Virus genome (UHGV): UHGV-0357595
From: a virus
DNA length: 16,495 nucleotides
Reading direction: 5' to 3' (one strand)
The translations under genes and the position numbers were made by a program. Positions within the stretch are counted from its first letter, which is position 1; each line of letters starts with the position of its first letter. The notes beneath the pieces are model-generated. The model worked only from the letters and a program-made list of their open reading frames with translations. It had not been told where the DNA came from and did no database searches. Of this stretch, positions 611 to 11,703 are shown one piece after another.

Positions 611-1021
611 TGTCAGCCTCATCAGTCAGTGTTTCTGGCTAACCAGCAACGCGCGCCAGATTCGGTTTTAAACGTTTTGCTTTTGGTATACGTCATGGCG
701 GTGAATGTGCCGTCCTGATTGGGAAACACGCCACATACCAGAGATGTTGTTGCCAAGATCGTTAGTATCCATGTTGACCTCATTTCCCCTTAACGCCGGG
801 TGGCGGAACGTTTTATCTACTGCGCTTTGTATCAATCAACAACTGCCGTCATGTTCGTATGCCTCAGGCTGGCTACTTAGCCCTGTTCAGTGGCTGGATA
901 ACTCGAGGTATTGTCCAGCCGTTCTCTGGTGGGGCGTTGTTTGGATATGCTTATTAAACACAATGCGTTTTCTTATGTCAACACGAAATGTGTTTTGTGG
1001 TGAGTGTCATATGATGATGGT

Positions 1022-1047
1022 ACAAAAAAGCCCGCTGATAGCGGGCT
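1022..1047 (-). terminator. rho-independent terminator downstream of the repressor gene
   Basis: 7-bp stem AGCCCGC (1029-1035) / GCGGGCT (1041-1047) with loop TGATA; on the minus strand the hairpin is followed by a U-run (plus-strand A-run 1024-1029); lies 30 bp past the repressor stop. Confidence 0.6.
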
Positions 1048-1077
1048 GATTGGCATATTACTGTGATAGCAAGATCA

Positions 1078-1497
1078 TTACTCCGGTGGGGGATTATCTT
1101 TAAGCCTGCCTCTCAAATATTTTTCTACATACTCATCGATTTCTTTTAGCCGGACTTCAAATAGCTCAATCATTCGTTGTTGTTCTGAGCCCGGTAGCTG
1201 GTTAAACAACTCAAGAAGTTTTCGTTGGGATTCATTTAACCACAATTCAGAAGATTCCTGTTCTCCAAATAGGAGCTCAGGAGGAGATATGCCAAGTGCC
1301 TTTCCCAATACGACAGCGTCATGCACTCCAACATTTCTGCTGCCCGCCTCATAGTTACCTATACGCGATTGCGTCCATCCGCAGATTTCAGCAAGTTTTC
1401 CTTGAGATAAACCAAGCTTCTGCCTGCGCTCTTTAAGACGCATTGCAATTTTGTCATTGAGCCTACTAGCGGCAATTTTTTCGTTTTCTTTTTCCAT
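1078..1497 (-). CDS. prophage repressor, HTH XRE/cI-like, no S24 peptidase domain (RacR-like architecture)
   Basis: 139-aa ORF; helix-turn-helix signature LGLSQGKLAEICGWTQSRIGNYEAG; C-terminal part is helical with no Ser/Lys autopeptidase motif; AGGA 5 nt upstream of the ATG; divergent from a Cro-like gene. Confidence 0.8.
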   Translation of the reverse strand: MEKENEKIAASRLNDKIAMRLKERRQKLGLSQGKLAEICGWTQSRIGNYEAGSRNVGVHDAVVLGKALGISPPELLFGEQESSELWLNESQRKLLELFNQLPGSEQQRMIELFEVRLKEIDEYVEKYLRGRLKDNPPPE

Positions 1498-1593
1498 TGC
1501 ATCCTTGTATCACGAATCGTGATTTACATAAAACACAAAACAGCTTGACCATATAACACAAGGTGTGTTTAAAATTGTCATCGGAGGTTTTCA
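1498..1593. promoter_or_regulatory. divergent immunity-region promoters with palindromic operator candidates
   Basis: Inverted repeats ATCACG-AAT-CGTGAT (1509-1523) and AACACA-AGG-TGTGTT (1555-1569); rightward -35 TTGACC (1545-1550) with an AT-rich -10 near 1568-1575; leftward -35 TGACAA (complement of 1575-1580) and -10 TTATAT (complement of 1551-1556); the second palindrome sits between the two -10 elements. Confidence 0.5.
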
Positions 1594-1836
1594 ATGAACA
1601 AAATTTCAACATATCGAAAACAGCTTGGGCTGTCTCAAAGACAACTTGCTGTTCAGTTAGGGTGGATACAAAGCCGACTGGCAAATTACGAAGCAAATTT
1701 TCGTACCCCTGGACTAGAGGAGTGCAGAAAAATTGTTTCTACCCTTAATCGGCTTGGCGCTCATTGTGGACTTGACGATGTATTCCCCCCAGACGGTAAG
1801 CATAGCGAAAACAGCATAGGAGCGGTTGATTCATGA
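1594..1836 (+). CDS. Cro-like HTH XRE-family regulator (80 aa)
   Basis: ATG at 1594 with GGAGG 8 nt upstream; HTH signature LGLSQRQLAVQLGWIQSRLANYEAN; divergent from the repressor; stop overlaps the start of the next gene (ATGA at 1833-1836). Confidence 0.75.
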   Translation: MNKISTYRKQLGLSQRQLAVQLGWIQSRLANYEANFRTPGLEECRKIVSTLNRLGAHCGLDDVFPPDGKHSENSIGAVDS

Positions 1837-2255
1837 AAATCAGGCATGAGCACATCGAATCAGTGTTGTTAGCCCTGGCAGCCGAAAAAGGGCAGGCGTG
1901 GGTCGCTAACGCAATTACTGAAGAATATCTGCGCCAGGGGGGCGGCGAATTGCCCCTTGTACCAGGCAAGGACTGGAACAATCAGCAGAATATCTATCAC
2001 CGTTGGTTGAAAGGTGAAACGAAAGCGCAAAGGGAAAAAATTCAGAAACTGATCCCTGCGGTTCTGGCAATTCTTCCGCGCGAGCTGCGTCACCGACTCT
2101 GCATCTTCGATACCCTGGAACGCCGTGCATTACTGGCGGCGCAGGAAGCGTTGAGTACGGCAATTGATGCGCATGATGATGCAGTCCAGGCCGTTTACCG
2201 GAAAGCACATTTCAGCGGTGGTGGGTCGCCCGGCGATTCTGTCGTAGTGCATTGA
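1833..2255 (+). CDS. YdaT-like protein (hypothetical regulator or toxin following cro)
   Basis: 140-aa ORF translationally coupled to the Cro-like gene; size and position match the ydaS-ydaT arrangement of Rac-type prophages; family assignment is from memory only. Confidence 0.5.
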   Translation: MKIRHEHIESVLLALAAEKGQAWVANAITEEYLRQGGGELPLVPGKDWNNQQNIYHRWLKGETKAQREKIQKLIPAVLAILPRELRHRLCIFDTLERRALLAAQEALSTAIDAHDDAVQAVYRKAHFSGGGSPGDSVVVH

Positions 2256-2299
2256 TTGAAATTAATCGTGCCGGATTGTTTTGTTCGGTATCAGTTAAA

Positions 2300-2320
2300 T
2301 GTAACGCTGCGAGCGTTACA
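2300..2320. repeat. 21-bp palindrome TGTAACGCT-GCG-AGCGTTACA (copy 1, perfect arms)
   Basis: Perfect 9-bp inverted arms with a 3-bp spacer, 13 bp upstream of the initiator start codon. Confidence 0.7.
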
Positions 2321-2332
2321 AGGTGAAAACAA

Positions 2333-3121
2333 ATGGCTTCAAACTGGATAAAGCTCGAGGTTATTACGCCGGATAAGCCGGAAATATTCAGGCTTGCTGA
2401 GATTCTGAATATTGATCCAGATGCCGCATTAGGGAAGGTTATTCGCTTCTGGGCATGGGCGGATCAACAAATGATAGACGGTAATGCAGATTGTAACGCT
2501 CGCGGCGTTACAAAAAGTGCAATAGATCGCATCACTTTTATGGCTGGTTTTGCTGATGCGTTAATTCAGGTTGGATGGCTGGTCGAAAATGACGTTGGGC
2601 TTTCTCTACCTAACTTTGAACGTCATAACGGAAAAAGCTCTAAAAAACGGGCGGTTACAAACGAGCGAGTTACAAAAATACGCGAACTGAAACGAAAAGG
2701 TAACGCTGCCAGCGTTACACAAACGGATCAAAAAGCGTTACCAGAGGAAGAGGAAGAGGAAGATCTAAATACTGATCTCCCCCTAAATCCCCCTCGCCAA
2801 AAACGAGCGTCTAAAAAATTCGAGCCGGAGGCTATTGAGCTGCCCGATTGGTTGCCGGAAACACTCTGGCATGAGTGGGTCCGGTTCAGACAGGCATTGC
2901 GAAAACCGATTCGAACGGAGCAGGGCGCTAACGGGGCGATACGGGAACTGGAAAAATTCCGTCAGCAGGGTTTTACACCTGAGCAGGTGATTCGACACAG
3001 CATCGCCAATGAATACCAGGGCCTGTTCGCGCCGAAAGGTGTTCGGCCTGAGACGTTGCTCCGACAGGTTAACACCGTCTCGTTGCCGGACAGTGCGATC
3101 CCGCCAGGCTTCAGGGGGTAA
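2333..3121 (+). CDS. replication initiation / replisome-organiser protein (YdaU / O-like)
   Basis: 262-aa ORF directly upstream of a DnaC-like gene; contains the repeated palindromes in its coding sequence (as the lambda O gene contains ori); acidic EEEEEED stretch at 2744-2764. Confidence 0.65.
   Translation: MASNWIKLEVITPDKPEIFRLAEILNIDPDAALGKVIRFWAWADQQMIDGNADCNARGVTKSAIDRITFMAGFADALIQVGWLVENDVGLSLPNFERHNGKSSKKRAVTNERVTKIRELKRKGNAASVTQTDQKALPEEEEEEDLNTDLPLNPPRQKRASKKFEPEAIELPDWLPETLWHEWVRFRQALRKPIRTEQGANGAIRELEKFRQQGFTPEQVIRHSIANEYQGLFAPKGVRPETLLRQVNTVSLPDSAIPPGFRG
2492..2512. repeat. 21-bp palindrome TGTAACGCT-CGC-GGCGTTACA (copy 2)
   Basis: Same palindrome with one arm mismatch, inside the initiator coding sequence, 192 bp from copy 1. 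Confidence 0.7.
2699..2719. repeat. 21-bp palindrome GGTAACGCT-GCC-AGCGTTACA (copy 3)
   Basis: Same palindrome with one outer mismatch, inside the initiator coding sequence, 207 bp from copy 2; two extra GTTACAA half-sites lie at 2654-2660 and 2669-2675. Confidence 0.7.
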
Positions 3122-3127
3122 CAGACC

Positions 3128-3874
3128 ATGAAAAATATTGCGACAGGAGGCGTTCTGGAGCGTATCCGCAGACTGGCCCCACCACATGTAACCGCCCCAT
3201 TCAGAACGGTTGCGGAGTGGCGCGAGTGGCAACTTGCTGAAGGCCAGAAACGTAGCGAGGAGATCAACCGCCTGAATCGTCAGTTGCGGGTGGAAAAAAT
3301 TCTGAATCGCTCAGGCATCCAGCCGTTGCACCGTAAATGCTCGTTTGCGAATTACCAGGTGCAGAACGACGGCCAGCGATACGCGTTAAGCCAGGCGAAA
3401 TCCATCGCCGATGAACTGATGACCGGGTGTACAAATTTTGCGTTCAGCGGAAAACCTGGTACCGGGAAGAATCACTTAGCGGCAGCTATCGGGAATCGCC
3501 TGCTGAAAGACGGTCAGACAGTGATTGTGGTTACCGTGGCTGATGTTATGAGCGCCCTGCACGCCAGCTATGACGACGGGCAGTCAGGCGAAAAATTTTT
3601 GCGGGAACTGTGCGAAGTGGATCTGCTGGTTCTTGATGAAATTGGCATTCAGCGCGAGACGAAAAACGAGCAGGTGGTACTGCACCAGATTATTGATCGA
3701 CGGACAGCGTCGATGCGTAGCGTGGGAATGCTGACAAACCTGAACTATGAGGCCATGAAAACATTGCTCGGCGAGCGGATTATGGATCGCATGACCATGA
3801 ACGGCGGGCGATGGGTGAATTTTAACTGGGAGAGCTGGCGTCCGAATGTCGTCCAGCCAGGAATTGCGAAGTGA
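3128..3874 (+). CDS. DnaC-like helicase loader (IstB-like AAA+ ATPase)
   Basis: 248-aa ORF; Walker [16 protein letters not shown]; Walker B-like DLLVLDEIG; follows the initiator gene. Confidence 0.85.
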
Positions 3875-3896
3875 TTTTTACCGGGAGGAAATTTTA

Positions 3897-4658
3897 ATGG
3901 AGACTGTTTTTGACGCACTGAAAGCGATGGGAAAAGCCACATCCATAGAACTTGCTGCGCGACTTGATATCAGTCGTGAAGAGGTACTGAACGAGCTGTA
4001 GGAACTGAAAAAGGCTGGTTTTGTTGATAAAAGCGCGTACACCTGGCGTGTGGCTGATAACAACGTTCAGCAGGAACAGCCAGAGCAGGCAGAACTGCCG
4101 GAAGAAACCACCACGGCAACAGTCGCGAAAATTTCGGAGTGCGATTTAACTGCGGCGATTGAACAACGTGGGCCACAAACGGCGGATGAGTTGGCTACAT
4201 TGTTCGGTACCACATCACGCAAAGTAGCTTCAACGCTGGCAATGGCTATCAGCAAAGGACGCCTGATTCGCGTAAACCAGAACGGTAAATTTCGTTACTG
4301 CATACCGGGCGATAATTTACCAGCAGAGCCGAAAGCAGCATCGGTAGCGGAAACTGATGGTAAGGCCTTTCCTCAGCCCACAGGTGTTGCGTTACCAGTA
4401 CAGGAGGCTGCAACACAGGAAGATATTAAAACAGAAACGGTGGCGGACATTGTGCAGTCGCTGCCATCGTTTACTGAAACGCGAGCGGATGACCTGGTTT
4501 TACCATCGCTGCATATGGCAAACCGCGAACTGCGTCGGGCGAAAAATCATGTCCAGAAGTGGGAGCGAATCTGCGCCGCGCTGCGGGAGCTGAACAAGCA
4601 CCGGGATATTGTTCGACATATTTTCGATTCCTCCAGTCGTATTGTGTCGGAAAAGTGA
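3897..4658 (+). pseudogene. hypothetical protein interrupted by an in-frame amber (TAG) codon at 3999-4001
   Basis: ATG at 3897 with GGGAGG 8 nt upstream; the frame is open for 34 codons, hits TAG at 3999-4001, then stays open in the same frame to 4658; the downstream part has only a GTG at 4050 with no Shine-Dalgarno. Confidence 0.6.
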
Positions 4659-4673
4659 TTGCCGGAGGCACCT

Positions 4674-5096
4674 ATGGCAAAAGTATTTACACCAGAAGAG
4701 CGAGAAAAAATTAAAGGGCAGGTTGTTGAACTTGTACGTCTGAGCGGTCGCGAGACGTTACGGGCTCTGGAGGTTAAAACCGGTGCATCAAGGTATTACA
4801 TAAGCACTCTCGCCAGAGAACTGGTCGCCAGTGGTGATGTTTACAATTCAGGCTACGGATTATTCCCGTCTGAGCAGGCGCGTAAGGACTGGCAAAACGC
4901 CCGCAAAAAACTATCCAGGGCAAAGGTGAAAAAAACGGTTGTGGTTGATCCGGACCTTATCTGGTCATTACCAGACGGAGAAATACGCCGCTACGACAGG
5001 CGTCTGAACATAATCTGTCGCGAGTGCAGGAAGAGCGAAGTTATGCAGCGCGTGCTGGCGTTTTATCAGGGGAATTTTCAGGAGGTGGCACAGTGA
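4674..5096 (+). CDS. hypothetical protein (141 aa)
   Basis: ATG at 4674 with GGAGG 6 nt upstream; basic C-terminal half; no confident family call. Confidence 0.6.
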   Translation: MAKVFTPEEREKIKGQVVELVRLSGRETLRALEVKTGASRYYISTLARELVASGDVYNSGYGLFPSEQARKDWQNARKKLSRAKVKKTVVVDPDLIWSLPDGEIRRYDRRLNIICRECRKSEVMQRVLAFYQGNFQEVAQ

Positions 5097-5293
5097 GCGG
5101 GATTGACTACCAAGAATTGGCTGCTGCCAACGCTTTCCTGGCGGATGTGCGGGCAGGGGCGTTTAACGACCTTTGCGCGGCGTTTGTCAGGCACGCAAAA
5201 ATTGCAGGACTGGGTGATGCCGATACCGTAACGCTTAAGGAAGTGACAGAAGCATTGTTGCATTGTGCGGAACAGATTCGCGCGGCTGAATAA
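5093..5293 (+). CDS. hypothetical small protein (66 aa)
   Basis: GTG at 5093 with GGAGG (5081-5085) upstream; start overlaps the upstream stop (GTGA), suggesting translational coupling. Confidence 0.4.
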   Translation: MSGIDYQELAAANAFLADVRAGAFNDLCAAFVRHAKIAGLGDADTVTLKEVTEALLHCAEQIRAAE

Positions 5294-5566
5294 TTAAATT
5301 TAGTGTTGTAAATAAAATTTAATCCTTAACCGGAGGGATTTCTGCACCCTCAAATAATCAGGAGGCCGCCCAAAAGGGCGGAACAGATAATGCTTACGTT
5401 GAAACATTTTATCGACATACCAACATGGTTAGCCGTCATTGCTTTTGTTAAAATACACATCCACTTTTCTGTGCAATGTTTAACCACTGGTCATATCAAA
5501 TGGTATTCATGCGAACCATGATATAGAATCATGGCTTGAGAGAGTCGATGAAAGCGCAACTATGGT

Positions 5567-6145
5567 ATGAGAGACATTGATGTAAGAAAGGCTGTGCATG
5601 CCAAGATTCTGAGAGATCATCATAAAGATCCTGACACCCTAATCATTGATGAGTTTACGATGAATCTAGGGGCTAGCAGAGCTGATATAGCAGTGATCAA
5701 TGGGCTTATACATGGTTATGAGTTGAAGAGCAAGAGTGATAACTTGCTCAGATTACCAGCGCAGGTGCAACATTACTCATCAGTGATGGATAAAGTAACG
5801 TTGGTTGTCTCTGATTGCCATCTTTATGATGCTTTAAGCATAGTTCCATCATGGTGGGGGATAAAGCAAGTTACGCAAGGTGCACGGCAAGGTATCCATT
5901 TAAAAACAATTCGAACTAGCAAGTTGAATCCACAAGTGGACAAACTTTCCTTAACAATGCTTCTTTGGAAAGATGAATTGCTTTCCCTATTAAGTGATGT
6001 AGGGGAGCTACAGAATTTGAAAAATAAACCTAAACGCGTCTTATGGTCAAAACTCGCCAATAGTATGGATGTTGGCGAGCTTCGTGAAGCTGTTCGAGTT
6101 AAACTTAAAGCCCGTAAAGAGTGGCGAGTTGCTCAACAACCTTAG
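5567..6145 (+). CDS. putative PD-(D/E)xK-type nuclease-like protein (192 aa); possibly sce7726-family
   Basis: ORF in the AT-rich island; motif RADIAVINGLIHGYELK (Asp followed about 12 residues later by Glu-x-Lys) resembles a PD-(D/E)xK core; weak Shine-Dalgarno; family name is a recollection, not a search result. Confidence 0.6.
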   Translation: MRDIDVRKAVHAKILRDHHKDPDTLIIDEFTMNLGASRADIAVINGLIHGYELKSKSDNLLRLPAQVQHYSSVMDKVTLVVSDCHLYDALSIVPSWWGIKQVTQGARQGIHLKTIRTSKLNPQVDKLSLTMLLWKDELLSLLSDVGELQNLKNKPKRVLWSKLANSMDVGELREAVRVKLKARKEWRVAQQP

Positions 6146-7202
6146 TTATGTGATGGTTTTGCCCAATCCTACGCCATACCTCTGGGCTACCAAATTTATA
6201 GTTACCAGAGGGATTGGCTTTGTAGGCTTGATACTCGTTTGCATAATATTCTATGTCTCTATCTCCCGCACAGAATGTAGGCCCTGAATATTCTCGATGA
6301 GCAAGAATATCCTCACTATGTTTACCATATTGTTCATAACCAAAGCGATTAGCTACTCTTCCTCGAAATACCCAAAAGTCATTATCTCCAGAGTATCTGA
6401 CGCTGGCAGATACGCTAGGGAATCGCGTCGAAAGCCTATTAAAGTCGGGGTGCTGTACTCCATAATCACTATAAATCACATTTCTGGCAAGTTCTTTTCT
6501 ATTCATTAAACTCTGCCATAAAATCCACTCGATTCGAGGTTGAGAATATAGACCAACAGAAATATCACTGAGATCTGTAGGAAATGAACCCCCAGAAAGA
6601 ATCACTTTTCTGTATTCATTGAGGTGCGCCAGATTGTTTATCAATCCCATTGCCAACGTATATAGTTCGCCGGAATTAAGTTTATCCTCGGTTAACTCAT
6701 CTCTTAAGTCAATAATTATATCAATATTTGATAAAGGAATTCCCAGATGATTAATGTAATGCGTTATTAATTGTGGGTTAACCAGATCTAACGTGGTTAA
6801 TCTCAAGCATATTTCATTCTGCATTAATTCATCAATCGCTCTTTTATAGTTAGATGGGCGAGTTGGTGAACTGACAGGAATAACTCTTATCCCCATATCT
6901 CTAACTTGATGAACCGCATTTATTATAGGGTAATGATCTTCAGGAGAAATAAAATGCTCTTCAATTAATAATCCATCAATATAAACACCTTGCATATCTG
7001 AGCAAGATTTTGAGACTTTCTTTCCGAACTCTATAAGAGTCTCGTTATAACTCTTTAAGGCAATACCTGAATCAGGGTCAATTGGCACTGGTTCAATTTC
7101 GAGTAATGGCAAAATTTTTGATTTCTTTTCAATGGATAGCTGCGATAAAGCTGATAACTCAGAACGTTTCGCTTTCAGAATAGGAATATATGAAATTGTC
7201 AT
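6105..7202 (-). CDS. hypothetical protein (365 aa), partner of the putative nuclease; possibly beta/sce7725-family
   Basis: Long minus-strand ORF in AT-rich DNA; start ATG at 7202 with AAGGT upstream; N-terminus MTISYIPILKAKRSELSAL; convergent with the 192-aa gene and overlapping it by 41 bp at the 3' ends. Confidence 0.7.
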   Translation of the reverse strand: MTISYIPILKAKRSELSALSQLSIEKKSKILPLLEIEPVPIDPDSGIALKSYNETLIEFGKKVSKSCSDMQGVYIDGLLIEEHFISPEDHYPIINAVHQVRDMGIRVIPVSSPTRPSNYKRAIDELMQNEICLRLTTLDLVNPQLITHYINHLGIPLSNIDIIIDLRDELTEDKLNSGELYTLAMGLINNLAHLNEYRKVILSGGSFPTDLSDISVGLYSQPRIEWILWQSLMNRKELARNVIYSDYGVQHPDFNRLSTRFPSVSASVRYSGDNDFWVFRGRVANRFGYEQYGKHSEDILAHREYSGPTFCAGDRDIEYYANEYQAYKANPSGNYKFGSPEVWRRIGQNHHITKVVEQLATLYGL

Positions 7203-7321
7203 GTTAATACCTTATACAGAATCAATTAACAATTAATGGTTCTTCGGACATTGAAATTTATATCGCAAAAATTGGCAAACTCTCCTCGACTACTCACTTG
7301 TGGGTATCCTGGCGTAAAAGG

Positions 7322-7373
7322 AATGACTTGGCAATACCCGGTGTGATCATAAGTCATTGAAAATGATCATTTT
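7322..7373. promoter_or_regulatory. palindromic elements with Dam (GATC) sites upstream of the 365-aa gene
   Basis: Inverted repeat AATGACTT (7322-7329) / AAGTCATT (7351-7358) flanking TGATCAT (7344-7350); perfect 14-bp palindrome AAAATGATCATTTT (7360-7373). Confidence 0.3.
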
Positions 7374-7644
7374 TATCAGTCTTTCTTCCATGATGAATGC
7401 TAATGCCATTTGATTTGTTGAGGTGAAAACTGTTAAAAATCAAAACGATGTAATTGAAATGAACGTTCGGTAGCATTCACGCTTTAAATGTTTCTTTTGT
7501 GCTGATTGGATGAATTTTGGTCACTTATGATGAGAGATGTTGCAGGAAAAGAAGTTGGCATTGATCTATTGGATAGTTAGAATTGCTGCGGGTGCTTGAG
7601 GCTATCTGCCTCAGGCATGAACACCAAAAGGCAGATAGAGAAAA

Positions 7645-7711
7645 GCCCCAGTTAACATTACGCGTCCGGCAAGACGCTTAACATTAATCTGAGGCCAATT
7701 TCATGCTTTGC
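7645..7711 (-). ncRNA. candidate Sok-like antisense RNA of the hok locus
   Basis: Minus-strand promoter-like elements TTGCCT (complement of 7741-7746) and TAACCT (complement of 7718-7723), antisense to the hok leader; 3' end not resolved; placed by analogy with hok/sok loci. Confidence 0.3.
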
Positions 7712-7759
7712 ACATGTAGGTTAGCCTCTTACGTGCCGAAAGGCAAGGAGAAGCAGGCT

Positions 7760-7915
7760 ATGAAGCAGCAAAAGGCGATGTTAATCGCCCTGATCGTCAT
7801 CTGTTTAACCGTCATTGTGACGGCGCTGGTAACGAGGAAAGACCTCTGCGAGGTACGAATCCGAACCGGCCAGACGGAGGTCGCTGTCTTCACAGCTTAC
7901 GAACCTGAGGAGTAA
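7760..7915 (+). CDS. hok: Hok/Gef-family type I toxin (51 aa)
   Basis: Translation MKQQKAMLIALIVICLTVIVTALVTRKDLCEVRIRTGQTEVAVFTAYEPEE matches the Hok/Gef family (HokD/RelF-like as recalled); single transmembrane helix; an in-frame upstream ATG at 7703 would extend the frame to 70 codons. Confidence 0.85.
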   Translation: MKQQKAMLIALIVICLTVIVTALVTRKDLCEVRIRTGQTEVAVFTAYEPEE

Positions 7916-7984
7916 GAGACCAGGCGAGGGAGAAATCCCTCGCCACCTCTGATGAGTCAGGCATCCTCAACGCACCCGCGCTTA

Positions 7985-8005
7985 ACCCGTTTCGGCGGGT
8001 TTTTT
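7985..8005 (+). terminator. rho-independent terminator at the 3' end of the hok mRNA
   Basis: Stem ACCCG (7985-7989) / CGGGT (7996-8000) followed by TTTTT (8001-8005); an additional strong hairpin GGCGAGGGA / TCCCTCGCC lies at 7923-7944. Confidence 0.55.
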
Positions 8006-8190
8006 GTTGCGCGCTGAATACGCAGGGTGAAAAATAACCATATATTTGATTATATACACAACACAAAATAAAAGTCATTGCACCTGCACATTAAATAATC
8101 AAATATACGACGTGAAATAAATATTTTTTAGATTAATATTTTTGTCTCTATGTGGATATAACCGTTTGTACTTATAAACCTGGAGGCATC

Positions 8191-8403
8191 GTGGAAAAAA
8201 TAAAGAAACTATTTAGTAGCAAATATGCAGTCATACGTCGTGATGACCTGTCAGTTATAGTCGAAATGGATTACTTCCCTGAAACCAAAAAATCAATGAT
8301 GTATCGTAATGGTCGAAAGGCAATTTTTTTACCGATGAGGGTAAGTGACATTATGGGAAATGATAAACTGCAGGATGAATTGCGAGTCAGAGCATCCTGT
8401 TAG
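8191..8403 (+). CDS. hypothetical small protein (about 70 aa)
   Basis: GTG at 8191 with GGAGG (8182-8186) upstream; AT-rich coding sequence preceded by an AT-rich promoter-like region; no recognisable motif. Confidence 0.4.
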   Translation: MEKIKKLFSSKYAVIRRDDLSVIVEMDYFPETKKSMMYRNGRKAIFLPMRVSDIMGNDKLQDELRVRASC

Positions 8404-8474
8404 TATTGGCATTAATTCTGGTATACTACATAACGGGCTGAACACCCATTCTACTGCGCCAGCGGAGAACTACG

Positions 8475-9074
8475 ATGGCGCATATACAACTGGTCAAACA
8501 AACCTCTTCTGGATTACTTCTCCCGGCGACGCCGGAGAGTTGCGATTTTTTGCATCAAATCAAAATAGGTGAGTGGATACACGCGGACTTTAAGCGAGTG
8601 CGTAACTACGCGTTCCACAAGCGTTTTTTCAAACTCCTGCAACTGGGATTCGATTACTGGACTCCGAACGGTGGGGCGATCACGCCTCGCGAACGAGAAC
8701 TGGTGTCCGGTTTCGTTGATTTCCTGTGCGAATCAGTAGGTCGGGAACATACGCCAGCCCTGAGTGATGCCGCAGAGCAATACCTTAACACCGTTGCGAC
8801 TTGCAGAACCCGGGATACGGCCTTACTCAAGTCCTTTGACGCTTTTCGCGAATGGGTAACCATTCAGGCCGGATTTTACACCGAACATTTTTATCCGGAC
8901 GGTAGTCGTGGGCGCAGGGCAAAATCTATCGCATTTGCGAACATGGACGAAACCGAGTTTCAGCAGGTTTATAAATCTGTACTGAATGTGCTGTGGAACT
9001 GGATCCTGTTCCGTAAATTTTCCTCTCCGGAGGAAGTCGAAAATGTGGCCGCGCAGTTACTGGAGTTTGCGTAA
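8475..9074 (+). CDS. nin-region protein (possibly DUF1367-like)
   Basis: 199-aa ORF with GGAG upstream; sits between the replication module and Q as nin-region genes do; family is a tentative recollection. Confidence 0.6.
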   Translation: MAHIQLVKQTSSGLLLPATPESCDFLHQIKIGEWIHADFKRVRNYAFHKRFFKLLQLGFDYWTPNGGAITPRERELVSGFVDFLCESVGREHTPALSDAAEQYLNTVATCRTRDTALLKSFDAFREWVTIQAGFYTEHFYPDGSRGRRAKSIAFANMDETEFQQVYKSVLNVLWNWILFRKFSSPEEVENVAAQLLEFA

Positions 9075-9364
9075 TGGTGGATTTACGTAAAGCGGCTCGG
9101 GGGCAGATGTGCACCGTCAGAATTCCTGGCTACTGCAATCACAATCCCGAAACATCTGTGCTGGCGCATTACAGGCTGGCGGGGACGTGCGGAACAGCGA
9201 CAAAACCACACGATATGCAGGCAGCGATTGCCTGTAGCTCATGCCACGATTTAATCGACGGGCGGGTAAAAACCAGCGATTACACCAAAGAAGAATTACG
9301 CCTGATGCATGCAGAAGGTGTTTTTCGCACACAAGAAATCTGGAGAAAGGAAGGTTATTTATGA
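9074..9364 (+). CDS. Cys-rich nin-region protein (YbcO / DUF1364-like)
   Basis: 96-aa ORF whose start overlaps the upstream stop (TAATG); cysteine cluster (CNHNPETS ... CGT ... CSSCHD); resembles the DLP12 YbcO family as recalled. Confidence 0.55.
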   Translation: MVDLRKAARGQMCTVRIPGYCNHNPETSVLAHYRLAGTCGTATKPHDMQAAIACSSCHDLIDGRVKTSDYTKEELRLMHAEGVFRTQEIWRKEGYL

Positions 9365-9915
9365 TTTACCCAACAAATACAGGCAAAAGCGGGGAACACC
9401 TTCGTCTCACCACGCTGGAAAGTGTCTGGATTCAGGGAAAACTGCGCATGTGGGGGCGCTGGTCGTATATTGGCGGCGGTAAGACGGGAAATATGTTTAA
9501 CCAGTTGCTGACCTCTAAAAAGCTAACAAAAACGGCAATTAATGAGGCGCTCCGGAGGATGAAAAAAGCAGGTCTGGACAAACCTGAACTTGAGGCTTTT
9601 TTGCGGGATATGATCAACGGCAAGCAAAAAAGCTGGCTGGTGCATTGTACTGATGCAGAGGCGTTATGCATTGATCGGGTGATTAGTGAAGTGCTGGCAG
9701 AACACCCAGGATTGATTTGTATCCTCCGGCAAAGATATGAAGGGCGGGGGATGAGTAAGCGCAAAATGGCTGAATTGCTAAATGATGCACACCCTGAGTG
9801 GTGTTTTCGGACGTGCTGCAGTCGGGTAGATGTATGGCTAAATCTTGCTGAATATATGCTCTATCTGCCGATGCGTGATGCATTCTCTTCCGGGTATTTA
9901 AAAACTGTCTGTTGA
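9361..9915 (+). CDS. Q-like late antiterminator (putative)
   Basis: 184-aa ORF starting at ATG 9361 (overlaps the upstream stop, ATGA); its stop is embedded in a strong promoter followed by a terminator, and the lysis and packaging genes lie downstream; call rests mainly on position. Confidence 0.5.
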   Translation: MIYPTNTGKSGEHLRLTTLESVWIQGKLRMWGRWSYIGGGKTGNMFNQLLTSKKLTKTAINEALRRMKKAGLDKPELEAFLRDMINGKQKSWLVHCTDAEALCIDRVISEVLAEHPGLICILRQRYEGRGMSKRKMAELLNDAHPEWCFRTCCSRVDVWLNLAEYMLYLPMRDAFSSGYLKTVC

Positions 9916-10188: not shown

Positions 10189-10770
10189 ATGACAACTCAA
10201 ATTTCTGTTGAAACTCTCTCCCCGATCACCCATAACCAGATTCCTGTTATTACCACCGAACTTTTGGCGCAGTTGTACGGTGCTGAAGTTAAGAACATTC
10301 AAAATAACTACGCCAGAAATGCTGAGCGCTTTATTGAAGGAAAGCATTTTTTCAAAGTGGCTGGCGATGCCCTGAAAAATTTGCGGGTAGCTTTAAACTA
10401 CTCACAAAATTTGCAACCATCTTTAAGAGGGTTACAAATTTCCCCGAAAGCCCGCTCCCTCATCCTCTGGACAGAACGCGGAGCAGCCCGTCATGCCAAA
10501 ATGCTCGAAACCGATCAGGCGTGGGATGTGTTCGAAAAGCTGGAAGACTGCTATTTCAGACAAAAGGATCCGTCAGCGCCAGTTTCATGCCAGAAAAGTT
10601 ACGACACGCGAGTTCTCTGTTATCAGCGAGGCGGTGTCACTGTTTCCACAATTCAGTTGCGGGATGATGATATTGTTATTTCCCTTGAGTCATGGCTGGA
10701 ACTGGCGAGAGCCAATGGTTGGTTTGTTGTTCGCAGAGATAAACTGGTGGAAAGGTTGATGCAGCTTTAA
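10189..10770 (+). CDS. ORF6N-domain protein (antirepressor-like)
   Basis: 193-aa ORF; N-terminal region with LAQLYG ... NYARNAERFIEGKHFFKV ... LWTERGAARHAKML ... AWDVFEKLEDCYF, which matches the ORF6N domain pattern as recalled; first gene after the tR'-like terminator. Confidence 0.65.
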   Translation: MTTQISVETLSPITHNQIPVITTELLAQLYGAEVKNIQNNYARNAERFIEGKHFFKVAGDALKNLRVALNYSQNLQPSLRGLQISPKARSLILWTERGAARHAKMLETDQAWDVFEKLEDCYFRQKDPSAPVSCQKSYDTRVLCYQRGGVTVSTIQLRDDDIVISLESWLELARANGWFVVRRDKLVERLMQL

Positions 10771-10865
10771 AAAAGTTCTTGCATTTTTGCACATAAACTG
10801 CTTCAATTCCGGTACGCTTCGCAAAGCTGTATCGCGAGGCGAATCAAGCGCATGAACTTTACCAG

Positions 10866-10893
10866 AACCCGCCATTGAGCGGGTTTTGTTGTT
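10866..10893 (+). terminator. rho-independent terminator after the ORF6N gene
   Basis: Stem AACCCGC (10866-10872) / GCGGGTT (10879-10885) with loop CATTGA, followed by a T-rich tract (TTGTTGTTT). Confidence 0.55.
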
Positions 10894-11003
10894 TCTGGTA
10901 CTGGCGAACCTGATGTTTCATTTCTGGAGCGCGATTCCTGGCGGAATACCTGGAATCGAGACATTCTGGTAAAATTGTTTTCAGTACAGGATGTGGAGGT
11001 GAG

Positions 11004-11573
11004 ATGAGAGAACTACCTAAAGATTATTTTTTAGGAGTAGATGATGAGCTCGTCGATTATCTTGAAAAACAAGGGGAAGAGACGATACGAGAGATTCATC
11101 TTTCTAACAAAACCAATGTTGAGAATGGATACAAACTTCTGAACATTCAGATTGTTGGAATTGGCTCATCTTTTTTATTGCTGACACAGAAAACTAATTT
11201 CGATTTTCTCACCGCTGGAATTACCACATTTACATTACTATGGACATGGTGCGCCATTTACTTGGTATGTACTGGTTTATCTGTGAAGGTTAGGGGCCTG
11301 ATCAATGCCCCTCCTGATCATCTATATCATGAAAAATATAAGGATATGGAGCCATCGAGCTTTAAAATATTCGCTGATGCAGGATATTTAGGACCTGATA
11401 AGTTATTGCCGCTTATACGAAGGTATCGCCTTGTTGACTTGAGTGATACAGCAAGAGAGTTACTGTTGGAAAATGAGAAAATCCGCACGAGTCTCGATAA
11501 AGCAAGGATGTATACCATCCTTGCTCCGGTAGCTGCGATGTTTATCTCGGCTGTTTTTTTATATGTTCAATGA
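11004..11573 (+). CDS. AT-rich membrane protein (moron; possible superinfection-exclusion or abortive-infection protein)
   Basis: 189-aa ORF; ATG at 11004 with GGAGG (10995-10999) upstream; hydrophobic segments IVGIGSSFLLL, ITTFTLLWTWCAIYLVCTGL and C-terminal ILAPVAAMFISAVFLYV; markedly AT-rich compared with neighbouring genes. Confidence 0.6.
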   Translation: MRELPKDYFLGVDDELVDYLEKQGEETIREIHLSNKTNVENGYKLLNIQIVGIGSSFLLLTQKTNFDFLTAGITTFTLLWTWCAIYLVCTGLSVKVRGLINAPPDHLYHEKYKDMEPSSFKIFADAGYLGPDKLLPLIRRYRLVDLSDTARELLLENEKIRTSLDKARMYTILAPVAAMFISAVFLYVQ

Positions 11574-11703
11574 CTGAGTCGGCAGAATCTCCAACAAAAA
11601 CACGACGTGTAGCAAAGTCTGCAGTACTTTGTGTTGGAGTTGGTTTTGGTGCCACGGGTTGCTGAGGTTTATTTTCACCTTGTGGCTTGTTTTTTTCAGA
11701 CAT
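11542..11703 (-). CDS. hypothetical small protein (53 aa), antisense-oriented within the late region
   Basis: Minus-strand ATG at 11703 with AGGA about 6 nt upstream; Pro/Gln-rich N-terminus; overlaps the 3' end of the membrane protein gene by 32 bp. Confidence 0.3.
   Translation of the reverse strand: MSEKNKPQGENKPQQPVAPKPTPTQSTADFATRRVFVGDSADSVIEHIKKQPR

What the first reader, a model, noticed from the sequence alone, without database searches (positions are those of the whole stretch)
5294..8190. AT-rich accessory island inserted between the replication and nin/Q modules
Base composition drops sharply across about 5300-8190 compared with the flanking phage genes. The island carries a convergent two-gene module, a hok/sok-type locus and a small AT-rich ORF, none of which are needed for the phage life cycle. 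This position in lambdoid prophages is a known hotspot for host-benefiting cargo, including anti-phage systems.
Basis: partly seen in the sequence, partly recalled or inferred. Interest (0 to 1): 0.7.

Follow-up and report, generated by a model that had tools for sequence, protein, structure and literature searches.

The report
Prophage cargo slot with beta/cII pair
The AT-rich stretch is a real cargo slot in a Rac-like E. coli prophage, and its main passenger is a two-gene cassette (a TIM-barrel "beta" protein plus a predicted nuclease) that is the shared core of two proven anti-phage systems but has not been described or tested on its own.

Summary
GC falls from about 0.51 to 0.38 exactly at 5294, and the 2.26-kb window of lowest GC in the whole 16.5 kb starts at 5291. 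The "island" is not one insertion, though. It is three modules that assort independently.

1. An AT-rich cassette at about 5395-7554, present in 93 of 5,426 complete E. coli genomes. It carries a P4 cII/sce7726-family gene and a P4 beta-family gene, convergent, with 3' ends overlapping by 41 nt.
2. A hok/sok locus of normal GC (7555-8005) that thousands of genomes share next to this slot.
3. A second AT-rich piece (8006-8474) with a 70-aa ORFan.

Other prophages fill the same slot with SIR2, PDC-S06 ATPase, Sll1717 ATPase, methylases, QueH or nothing.

The convergent, overlapping beta/sce7726 pair recurs in 77 of 80 genome loci from many phyla and in 50 of 53 viral contigs. There is no gop and usually no PD-lambda-2 A/B. 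Models predict a PD-(D/E)xK nuclease (sce7726) and a TIM barrel (beta).

My best reading is a minimal abortive-infection-type defence module related to P4 gop-beta-cII and PD-lambda-2. Its function is inferred, not shown. I class it as a new variant of a known kind, of moderate interest.

The parts
4659..5096 (+). Left backbone: DUF977 / Ren-like gene, last widely shared gene before the variable region
   Evidence: Pfam DUF977 3.3e-28. PHROG 142 'Ren-like exclusion protein' 3.5e-45. Homology with other prophages ends at about query 1020-1030, which is window about 5070-5080.
5093..5293 (+). Small variable ORF (66 aa, hypothetical) of normal GC; a first, separate variable position
   Evidence: Annotated as WP_042973267.1 in NZ_CP172331. 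phrog_27745. Other prophages have different genes here that end in the same last codons. GC 0.54.
5286..5392 (.). Conserved linker: end of the upstream gene, an intergenic hairpin (about 5361-5385) and the start codon that opens a DUF7167 gene in other prophages. Left boundary of the cargo.
   Evidence: The first ~80-115 bases of query 5300-7550 match 2,220 genomes. Alignment A4 shows near-identity up to about 5392 and divergence by about 5395-5425. Hairpin in the fold.
5567..6145 (+). sce7726 / P4 cII-family protein (192 aa), predicted PD-(D/E)xK nuclease with a C-terminal helical domain
6105..7202 (-). Beta-family protein (365 aa), predicted TIM barrel with a C-terminal helical extension
6105..6145 (.). 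41-nt overlap of the 3' ends of the two convergent genes
   Evidence: ORF coordinates. The same convergent 3' overlap (11-158 nt) occurs in 75 of 77 genome loci and in all 50 viral pairs.
7203..7554 (-). AT-rich (GC 0.35) non-coding region upstream of beta. It must hold beta's own promoter. No gop or PD-lambda-2 A/B gene is present.
   Evidence: GC. Only a weak promoter-like site at 7375->7346. The 40- and 43-aa ORFs here are not conserved in other loci, and tblastn with P4 gop finds nothing.
7555..8005 (+). hok/sok-type type I toxin-antitoxin locus: promoter 7555-7583, mRNA about 7590-8005, hokD CDS 7760-7915, terminator 7984-8001
   Evidence: Promoter TTGGCA-17-TAGAAT and terminator. Rfam RF01794 119.8 bits, full length. 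Pfam HOK_GEF 2.7e-23. 5'-3' (tac/fbi-like) pairing in the fold, z = -7.2. Homology block 7555-8005 shared with BL21 and other prophages. GC 0.514.
8006..8474 (+). Second AT-rich variable piece with orf70 (8191-8403, GTG start, GGAGG Shine-Dalgarno); an ORFan of E. coli/Shigella prophages. It occupies the place of rem in other prophages but is unrelated to Rem.
   Evidence: GC 0.36. Present in 175 of 5,426 genomes. Homologues only in E. coli/Shigella, with no domain. phrog_1813, unknown function. No similarity to Rem. Inverted repeat 8041-8056 / 8092-8107.
8475..9074 (+). Right backbone: DUF1367 / NinB-Orf-like gene, start of the nin/Q module
   Evidence: Pfam DUF1367 3.8e-97. PHROG 319 NinB/Orf 4.4e-70. 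HNH (9074-9364) and Q-like (9361-9915) genes follow.

Best explanation
The region is the ren-to-ninB cargo position of a Rac-like lambdoid prophage. Here, conserved linker sequences allow unrelated accessory cassettes to be swapped by recombination.

In this window the position holds three independent accessory modules.

(1) A self-contained two-gene cassette with a P4 beta-family TIM-barrel protein and a P4 cII/sce7726-family PD-(D/E)xK nuclease. The genes are convergent and their 3' ends overlap. I propose it is a minimal anti-phage (abortive-infection or superinfection-exclusion) module. In this model beta is the sensor/regulator, and it is the component shared with P4 gop-beta-cII and PD-lambda-2. 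sce7726 is the nuclease effector that beta licenses or restrains, cutting DNA once an incoming phage is sensed. The overlapping convergent transcription keeps the two genes inseparable and may set their ratio.

(2) An intact hok/sok type I toxin-antitoxin locus. It stabilises the prophage by post-segregational killing and is a near-constant neighbour of the slot.

(3) A 70-aa ORFan of unknown role.

Shown here: composition, boundaries, slot variability, family memberships, predicted folds and motifs, and the conserved pair architecture. Inferred: the defence function, which protein senses and which kills, and any role for the overlap.
For: Slot. The GC minimum falls exactly on the cassette. 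The same flanks enclose SIR2, PDC-S06 ATPase, Sll1717 ATPase, methylases, QueH, an alpha/beta hydrolase, Paa, or nothing. The conserved 105-bp linker and the hok block delimit the cargo.

Identity. Family matches for both proteins. P4 has the same convergent beta/cII arrangement.

Experimental precedent. gop-beta-cII protects against lambda and P1 (PMC9122126). It is triggered to kill by phage orf184 (bioRxiv 10.1101/2023.04.06.535777). [quoted passage not shown]

Conserved core. 77 of 80 sce7726 loci from many phyla, and 50 of 53 beta loci in viral contigs, have the convergent pair, nearly always with 3' overlap. None has gop, and only about 9 genome loci have PD-lambda-2 A/B. The pair also occurs in Gordonia phages next to the integrase and in a different moron slot (Rz-Nu1) of other E. 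coli prophages. The two proteins co-diverge (r = 0.83).

Asymmetry. sce7726 almost never occurs without beta. Beta does occur with other partners and without sce7726. This fits beta as the common regulator and sce7726 as one of several effectors.

Folds. PD-(D/E)xK fold with invariant E29/D40/E52/K54. TIM barrel with invariant charged residues at the C-terminal ends of the strands.

Neighbourhood. About a tenth of the immediate neighbours in 41 diverse loci are genes of other defence systems (BrxL, type I R-M, Kiwa, AbiEi, DRT, MzaA and others), alongside integrases and primases.

hok..
Against: No experiment exists on a gop-less, A/B-less beta/sce7726 pair. I found no paper on it, and PADLOC models flag only single components.

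In P4 the toxic protein reported is Gop, not cII. In PD-lambda-2 the toxic protein is B. So sce7726 has never been shown to be an effector, and the three-gene PD-lambda-2 construct defended as described without mention of an sce7726 gene.

Beta's TIM barrel matches no specific enzyme family, so its 'sensor' role is a guess. The best structural match of sce7726 (3dnx) is an uncharacterised protein. Its relatives are sometimes labelled MmcB-like DNA repair proteins, so a repair role is possible.

Strain PEC209 carries an intact sce7726 next to an IS1-split beta. This shows sce7726 is not lethal without beta at native expression. That argues against a simple toxin-antitoxin relation and leaves activation by beta unproven.

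Promoters for both genes are only weak consensus matches.
Confidence: 0.5

Rival explanations
1. The pair is a classical toxin-antitoxin addiction module. sce7726 is a nuclease toxin, beta is its protein antitoxin, and the job is to stabilise the prophage (like hok/sok next door) rather than to defend against phages.
For: Beta is called an antitoxin for Gop in P4 and a 'P4 phage antitoxin' relative in PD-lambda-2. The two genes are tightly linked and co-diverge. sce7726 almost never occurs without beta. The cassette sits on mobile elements.
Against: In strain PEC209 beta is split by IS1 while sce7726 is intact and has the identical protein accession, so loss of beta is tolerated. Convergent transcription with a large (365-aa) enzyme-like 'antitoxin' is atypical for type II TA. 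The experimental phenotypes of the two related systems are phage defence.
Confidence: 0.15
2. The pair is a restriction-modification-like system. Beta is a TIM-barrel DNA-modifying enzyme (for example a transglycosylase in the manner of DpdA/TGT) that marks self DNA. sce7726 is a nuclease that cuts unmarked (or marked) DNA.
Confidence: 0.1
3. The pair serves the phage itself, as a DNA repair/recombination or host-takeover function expressed during lytic growth, like the neighbouring nin-region recombination genes.
For: It lies next to NinB/Orf and an HNH gene. One source labels a homologue 'DNA repair protein MmcB-like'. sce7726 is co-oriented with early rightward transcription.
Against: It is absent from most related prophages (93 of 5,426 genomes). 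It also occurs in non-phage chromosomal contexts and defence-gene neighbourhoods across phyla and in a different slot near the terminase. Beta is on the opposite strand and needs its own promoter, which is moron-like. There is no orientation bias relative to neighbours.
Confidence: 0.1
4. The AT-rich cassette is decaying, silenced junk with no current function.
For: It has low GC typical of foreign DNA. IS1-disrupted copies exist. Its promoters are weak.
Against: Both ORFs are full length against their family models. The catalytic-type residues are invariant over large distances. The pair architecture is kept across many phyla.
Confidence: 0.05

Closest known systems
Satellite phage P4 gop-beta-cII system (PADLOC/DefenseFinder 'gop_beta_cll')
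   Same: It has a beta-family protein (PF14350) and a cII/sce7726-family protein (PF26915), encoded convergently. It is carried as non-essential cargo in a hotspot of a temperate element. The P4 system defends against lambda and P1 and behaves as a triggered cell-death system.
   Different: There is no gop gene, and Gop is the reported toxic component in P4. The window's sce7726 has 192 aa against 264 aa for P4 cII, with only 28% identity over 106 residues. The window's beta matches the PADLOC 'beta' model only weakly (1.8e-4) and PD-Lambda-2_C much better. The 3' ends overlap here, whereas a terminator separates them in P4.
PD-lambda-2 (Vassallo et al. 2022)
   Same: The window's beta matches PD-Lambda-2_C at 2.2e-41. 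[quoted passage not shown] In several genomes, PD-lambda-2 A-B-C is followed by a convergent sce7726 gene exactly as here.
   Different: The HigB-like A and Xre-peptidase B genes are absent. Only 352 bp of non-coding DNA lies upstream of beta.
hok/sok of plasmid R1 and the chromosomal hokD (relF) locus of the Qin prophage
   Same: The HokD protein has the same RefSeq accession (WP_000813254.1) as in BL21 and CFT073 prophages. The 5' leader matches Rfam RF01794 over its full length. The locus has a 5'-3' fold-back and a terminator.
   Different: From my own knowledge, K-12 hokD sits behind relBE. This copy keeps its own promoter and leader. The Sok promoter is only a weak match.
Moron / accessory slots of lambdoid phages, and the defence hotspots of P2 and P4
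   Same: Conserved flanks enclose variable content of atypical composition that includes defence-type genes. The concept is documented for P2/P4 (PMC9122126) and for prophages generally (PMC9519451).
   Different: This is the ren-ninB position of Rac/Qin-type lambdoid prophages. I did not find this particular position named as a hotspot in the papers I read.

Membership tests
P4 gop-beta-cII defence system | Beta-family protein (PF14350) | tested here: met
   Pfam 1.3e-52, full length 1-341/342. The PADLOC 'beta' model matches only at 1.8e-4.
P4 gop-beta-cII defence system | cII / sce7726-family protein | tested here: met
   PADLOC 'cll' 2.4e-28. NCBIfam sce7726_fam 1.7e-56. tblastn hit to P4 cII at 1e-5.
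P4 gop-beta-cII defence system | gop gene upstream of beta | tested here: not met
   tblastn with P4 Gop finds nothing in the window or in 80 related loci. Only non-conserved 40- and 43-aa ORFs lie in 7203-7554.
P4 gop-beta-cII defence system | Protection against phage / triggered cell death | not testable with these tools
   Needs plaque and toxicity assays.
PD-lambda-2 | Component C (beta-like) | tested here: met
   PDLC03983 at 2.2e-41 and PDLC03984 at 5.8e-38.
PD-lambda-2 | Components A (HigB-like) and B (Xre HTH-peptidase) upstream of C | tested here: not met
   There is no ORF of that size: only 352 bp separates beta from the hok promoter. A and B are readily detected where present, for example L024 and L061.
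hok/sok type I toxin-antitoxin | Hok/Gef toxin ORF | tested here: met
   PF01848 2.7e-23. Annotated hokD, WP_000813254.1.
hok/sok type I toxin-antitoxin | Structured hok mRNA leader and 5'-3' fold-back (tac/fbi), promoter and terminator | tested here: met
   RF01794 at 119.8 bits against a gathering score of 59, model positions 1-157/157. Promoter and terminator. The MFE fold pairs the 5' end with the 3' end, z = -7.2.
hok/sok type I toxin-antitoxin | Antisense Sok RNA with its own promoter | tested here: inconclusive
   Only a weak minus-strand match, TAAACA-18-TAACAT, at 7807->7778.
PD-(D/E)xK nuclease superfamily (sce7726) | Restriction-endonuclease-like fold | tested here: met
PD-(D/E)xK nuclease superfamily (sce7726) | Catalytic acidic residues and lysine (D ... 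E-x-K) | tested here: met
   E29, D40, E52 and K54 are invariant in 38 sequences down to 46% identity.
PD-(D/E)xK nuclease superfamily (sce7726) | Nuclease activity | not testable with these tools
   Needs biochemistry.
Lambdoid prophage cargo (moron) slot | Variable content between conserved flanks in related prophages | tested here: met
   More than 12 different occupants, or none, between DUF977 and hokD.
Lambdoid prophage cargo (moron) slot | Atypical composition of the cargo | tested here: met
   GC 0.38 against 0.49-0.51 in the flanks; GC3 0.30-0.36.
Lambdoid prophage cargo (moron) slot | Own promoter and terminator, expression from the lysogen | tested here: inconclusive
   Beta is antisense to early transcription, so it needs its own promoter. 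Only weak consensus matches were found. No expression data are available.

The most novel reading that the evidence does not exclude
The convergent, 3'-overlapping beta (TIM barrel) plus sce7726/cII (PD-(D/E)xK nuclease) pair is itself a widespread two-gene anti-phage system. It would be the ancestral core onto which P4 added gop and PD-lambda-2 added HigB-like/Xre-peptidase genes. Beta would act as a shared sensor hub that can be wired to different effectors. If so, PD-lambda-2 and gop-beta-cII have an overlooked nuclease partner in many genomes, and current defence finders miss hundreds of stand-alone copies in prophages from Proteobacteria to Actinobacteria, Firmicutes, Chloroflexi and CPR bacteria.
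Probability: 0.4. Interest if true: 0.6.

Novelty: new variant of a known kind. Interest (0 to 1): 0.45.

Why it matters
The island itself is ordinary prophage mosaicism. Its passenger is what matters.

- It points to a simple, testable two-gene unit that underlies two experimentally validated but mechanistically unexplained defence systems (P4 gop-beta-cII and PD-lambda-2).
- It offers concrete predictions: a nuclease active site at E29/D40/E52/K54, and a TIM-barrel pocket lined by invariant Arg, Asp and His residues.
- It identifies the ren-ninB position of Rac/Qin-type prophages as a place to mine further candidate defence genes, bounded by two easily recognised landmarks: a 105-bp linker and the hok locus.

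Tried and rejected
- Rem. The small ORF is not a Rem homologue, despite equal length and position.
- Hidden third gene. No gop-like or other conserved third gene lies upstream of beta or sce7726.
- Transposition. No terminal inverted or direct repeats flank the cassette, so there is no sign of transposition. Recombination at the conserved linkers fits better.
- Pfam. The local Pfam copy has no model for sce7726, even at E<=1.
- Solved structures. No solved structure is related by sequence to either protein.
- Orientation. I tested whether sce7726 is systematically co-oriented with its neighbours, as an induction-driven antisense switch would predict. There is no bias: 32 against 29 loci.
- Broader beta profile. 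An attempt to scan viral contigs with a more diverse beta alignment failed for lack of conserved stretches.
- Weak Rfam hits. isrK, rsmX and ceN48 within the hok locus fall below threshold and are just the hok 3' hairpins.
- Literature. Searches for sce7725, PF26915 and a stand-alone beta/cII pair returned nothing relevant.
- Frame error. My first translation of the 66-aa ORF used the wrong frame (5094). The correct coordinates are 5093-5293.
Full report
**Context.** The window is a Rac-like lambdoid prophage of E. coli. Over 4050-9364 it is 99.9% identical to the chromosome of strain APEC-O117H42. The two cassette proteins are 99.7% and 100% identical to those of Escherichia phage Rac-SA53. 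PHROG and Pfam scans give this gene order:

- repressor (1078-1497, minus strand)
- cro-like gene and ydaT
- replication initiator (2333-3121)
- DnaC-like loader (3128-3874)
- DUF1627
- DUF977 / Ren-like gene (4659-5096)
- the region in question
- DUF1367 / NinB-Orf (8475-9074)
- HNH / DUF1364 (9074-9364)
- Q-like antiterminator (9361-9915)
- anti-repressor, holin, endolysin, Rz, terminase

**Observation.** The 2,261-bp window of lowest GC anywhere in the 16.5 kb starts at 5291 (GC 0.379, against a sliding mean of 0.467 and sd of 0.035). Third-position GC is 0.30 for beta, 0.36 for sce7726 and 0.35 for orf70, while neighbouring genes have about 0.48-0.69.

The drop is real and sharp at the left edge. 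It is not uniform, however.

**Anatomy.** From left to right:

- A 66-aa hypothetical ORF (5093-5293) of normal GC.
- A 105-bp conserved linker (5286-5392).
- An sce7726-family gene (5567-6145, plus strand).
- A beta-family gene (6105-7202, minus strand), whose 3' end overlaps the 3' end of sce7726 by 41 nt.
- 352 bp of AT-rich non-coding DNA (7203-7554).
- A hok/sok-type locus (7555-8005).
- A 469-bp AT-rich piece holding a 70-aa ORF (8191-8403) with a GTG start and a GGAGG Shine-Dalgarno sequence.

**One island, or several modules?** I compared 4050-9364 with 5,426 complete E. coli genomes.

- *Left.* Homology ends near the end of DUF977.
- *Hok block.* The block at window 7578-8008 occurs in thousands of genomes.
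- *Between them.* Other prophages carry a SIR2 protein, a 798-aa AAA ATPase, an Sll1717-type P-loop ATPase, SAM methyltransferases, QueH, an alpha/beta hydrolase (O157:H7), KilA-N, a dATP/dGTP pyrophosphohydrolase, the Paa adhesin, or small nin-like ORFs (DUF7167, DUF4014). BL21(DE3) carries nothing at all, and DUF977 is followed directly by hokD.
- *Defence-type occupants.* The AAA ATPase is PADLOC candidate PDC-S06 (E = 0). The SIR2 and Sll1717 proteins give weaker PADLOC matches.
- *Counts.* The cassette 5300-7550 is present at >=80% coverage in 93 genomes, the 8006-8474 piece in 175, and the whole 5000-8600 arrangement in only 7.
- *Linker.* The first ~80-115 bases of the cassette query match 2,220 genomes. 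Alignment shows this is a linker: the last codons of whatever gene lies upstream, an intergenic hairpin, and the ATG that opens a DUF7167 gene in other prophages. The window diverges from them at about 5395-5425.
- *Repeats.* No flanking repeats suggest transposition.

The "island" is therefore a mosaic. Two conserved landmarks (the linker and hok) separate three pieces that assort independently. Between hokD and the orf70 gene, other prophages also insert a Phd/Doc-type toxin pair.

**hok/sok.** The evidence for an intact hok-family locus is as follows.

- The toxin ORF matches Pfam HOK_GEF (2.7e-23) and carries the same RefSeq protein accession as hokD in BL21 and CFT073 prophages.
- The 5' leader matches Rfam RF01794 over its full length at 119.8 bits (gathering score 59).
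- A TTGGCA-17-TAGAAT promoter (7555-7583) and a terminator (7984-8001) bracket it.
- The folded 417-nt transcript pairs its 5' end with its 3' end, as hok mRNAs do. Its z-score is -7.2.
- A Sok promoter is only weakly matched.

From general knowledge, such loci kill cells that lose them, and the R1 locus has been reported to exclude T4. I did not test either point.

**The two-gene cassette: identity.**

- *The 192-aa protein.* It matches NCBIfam sce7726_fam (1.7e-56) and the PADLOC 'cll' model built on P4 cII (2.4e-28). Its Pfam family is PF26915 'Phage_P4_cII'.
- *The 365-aa protein.* It matches Pfam Beta_protein (1.3e-52). It matches PADLOC PD-Lambda-2_C (2.2e-41) much better than the P4 'beta' model (1.8e-4).
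- *P4.* In P4, gop and beta run rightward and cII runs leftward. Beta and cII are therefore convergent, as here.
- *Published function of the relatives.* gop-beta-cII protects against lambda and P1, and Gop is toxic without beta (PMC9122126). A phage accessory gene, orf184, triggers the system to kill the cell (bioRxiv 10.1101/2023.04.06.535777). [quoted passage not shown]
- *What the window lacks.* It has neither gop (tblastn negative) nor room for A and B.

**The two-gene cassette: distribution.**

- *Genomes.* A scan of one genome per species found 450 relatives of sce7726. Of the best 80 loci, 77 have a beta gene immediately downstream in convergent orientation. They come from Enterobacterales, Vibrionaceae, Xanthomonadales, Alphaproteobacteria, Myxococcota, Acidobacteriota, Firmicutes, Actinobacteria, Chloroflexota, Saccharimonadia, Komeilibacteria and Gastranaerophilales. 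Two of the three exceptions are contig ends.
- *Overlap.* In 75 of the 77 pairs the 3' ends overlap, by 11-158 nt.
- *Viral contigs.* 50 of 53 beta loci have the same arrangement. The other three are truncated or disrupted. None has gop or A/B.
- *Phages.* Gordonia phages Powerball and DumpsterDude carry the pair next to their integrase and a HicAB pair.
- *A second E. coli lineage.* A lineage whose sce7726 is 53% identical sits in a different moron slot, between Rz and Nu1.
- *Third genes.* No third gene recurs, except in about 9 genome loci where PD-lambda-2 A and B precede beta. In those genomes PD-lambda-2 therefore has a convergent fourth gene.
- *The reverse case.* Among 56 Xre-peptidase loci in viral contigs, three have beta, and two of those lack any sce7726.
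- *Co-divergence.* Pairwise distances of the two proteins correlate (r = 0.83; none of 999 permutations reached it). Beta diverges faster: mean distance 0.69 against 0.56.
- *Neighbourhood.* Of 150 immediate neighbours in 41 diverse loci, roughly a tenth match other defence systems (BrxL, type I restriction enzyme, Kiwa A and B, AbiEi, DitA, two DRT reverse transcriptases, MzaA, methyltransferases). Integrases, resolvases and P4-type primases also occur.

**Predicted structures.** Both AlphaFold models are confident, with mean pLDDT of 94 and 93.

- *Solved structures.* Neither family has a solved structure detectable by sequence.

**Mechanism.**

- *Shown.* The cassette is an autonomous, mobile two-gene unit. 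It is the common core of two validated defence systems. One partner has an intact nuclease motif.
- *Inferred.* Beta is the shared sensor or regulator and sce7726 is a nuclease effector. The basis is the asymmetry (sce7726 is almost never without beta, while beta pairs with several partners), the faster divergence of beta, and the requirement for PD-lambda-2C in defence.
- *Against a simple toxin-antitoxin relation.* Strain PEC209 has beta split by IS1 next to an intact sce7726.
- *The overlap.* It may only reflect co-inheritance. A regulatory role through convergent transcription is speculation, and a test for orientation bias relative to neighbours was negative.
- *Rivals.* Addiction module, restriction-modification-like system, phage repair function, or decaying junk. 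I list them separately with the tests that would separate them.

**Novelty and verdict.** AT-rich cargo in a lambdoid prophage is ordinary, and hok/sok is well known. The stand-alone beta/cII pair is not ordinary. Current defence catalogues define only the three-gene forms, and I found no paper on the pair. It is widespread and has a strikingly conserved architecture. I rate it a new variant of a known kind and of moderate interest. The defence function is plausible but unproven.

Noticed in passing
window 3999-4001: The DUF1627 gene (start 3897) carries an amber stop (TAG) where the otherwise identical APEC-O117H42 prophage has TGG. In this window the gene is therefore interrupted after 34 codons, or restarts at GTG 4050.
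   Followed up: partly
window 10800-11600: A second AT-rich stretch (GC 0.375-0.41) lies between the anti-repressor (10189-10770) and the holin (11912). It holds a 189-aa ORF (11004-11573) that matches only phrog_11870, of unknown function. It may be another moron in the post-Q position.
   Followed up: partly
window 5286-5392: A 105-bp linker with a GC-rich hairpin (about 5361-5385) is conserved in about 2,200 E. coli genomes. It lies downstream of different genes and upstream of a DUF7167 gene. It is a likely recombination joint and possibly a tR2-like terminator.
   Followed up: partly
L143-L145 (E. coli contigs), genes at L143:3134-3754 and 3696-4763: A second E. coli lineage of the same convergent pair (sce7726 53% identical) sits between the Rz lysis gene and terminase Nu1. 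The cassette therefore moves between different moron slots.
   Followed up: partly
L024:6419-9140, L061:6545-9227, L159:3527-6496; contrast L149 and L150: In many genomes PD-lambda-2 A-B-C is followed by a convergent, overlapping sce7726 gene, a fourth partner not described for that system. Two viral contigs have A-B-beta without it.
   Followed up: partly
L205 (E. coli PEC209) 868-3279: IS1 splits the beta gene, while sce7726 next to it is intact and carries the same protein accession as in the near-identical APEC-O117H42 prophage. The predicted nuclease is tolerated without an intact beta.
   Followed up: partly
window 8041-8056 and 8092-8107: A 16-nt inverted repeat (94% complementary, 35 nt apart) lies in the AT-rich DNA upstream of orf70. 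It could be an operator or a hairpin.
   Followed up: no
L147 (E. coli OkiPb01684) 2256-3741: In another prophage, a small ORF plus a Doc (death-on-curing) toxin gene are inserted between hokD and a 70-aa ORF of the same size and position as the window's orf70. The hokD-to-ninB interval is thus a further cargo position.
   Followed up: no
window 7703-7915: An in-frame ATG at 7703 would extend Hok by 19 residues. I did not work out whether this or another frame serves as the mok-like leader reading frame.
   Followed up: no
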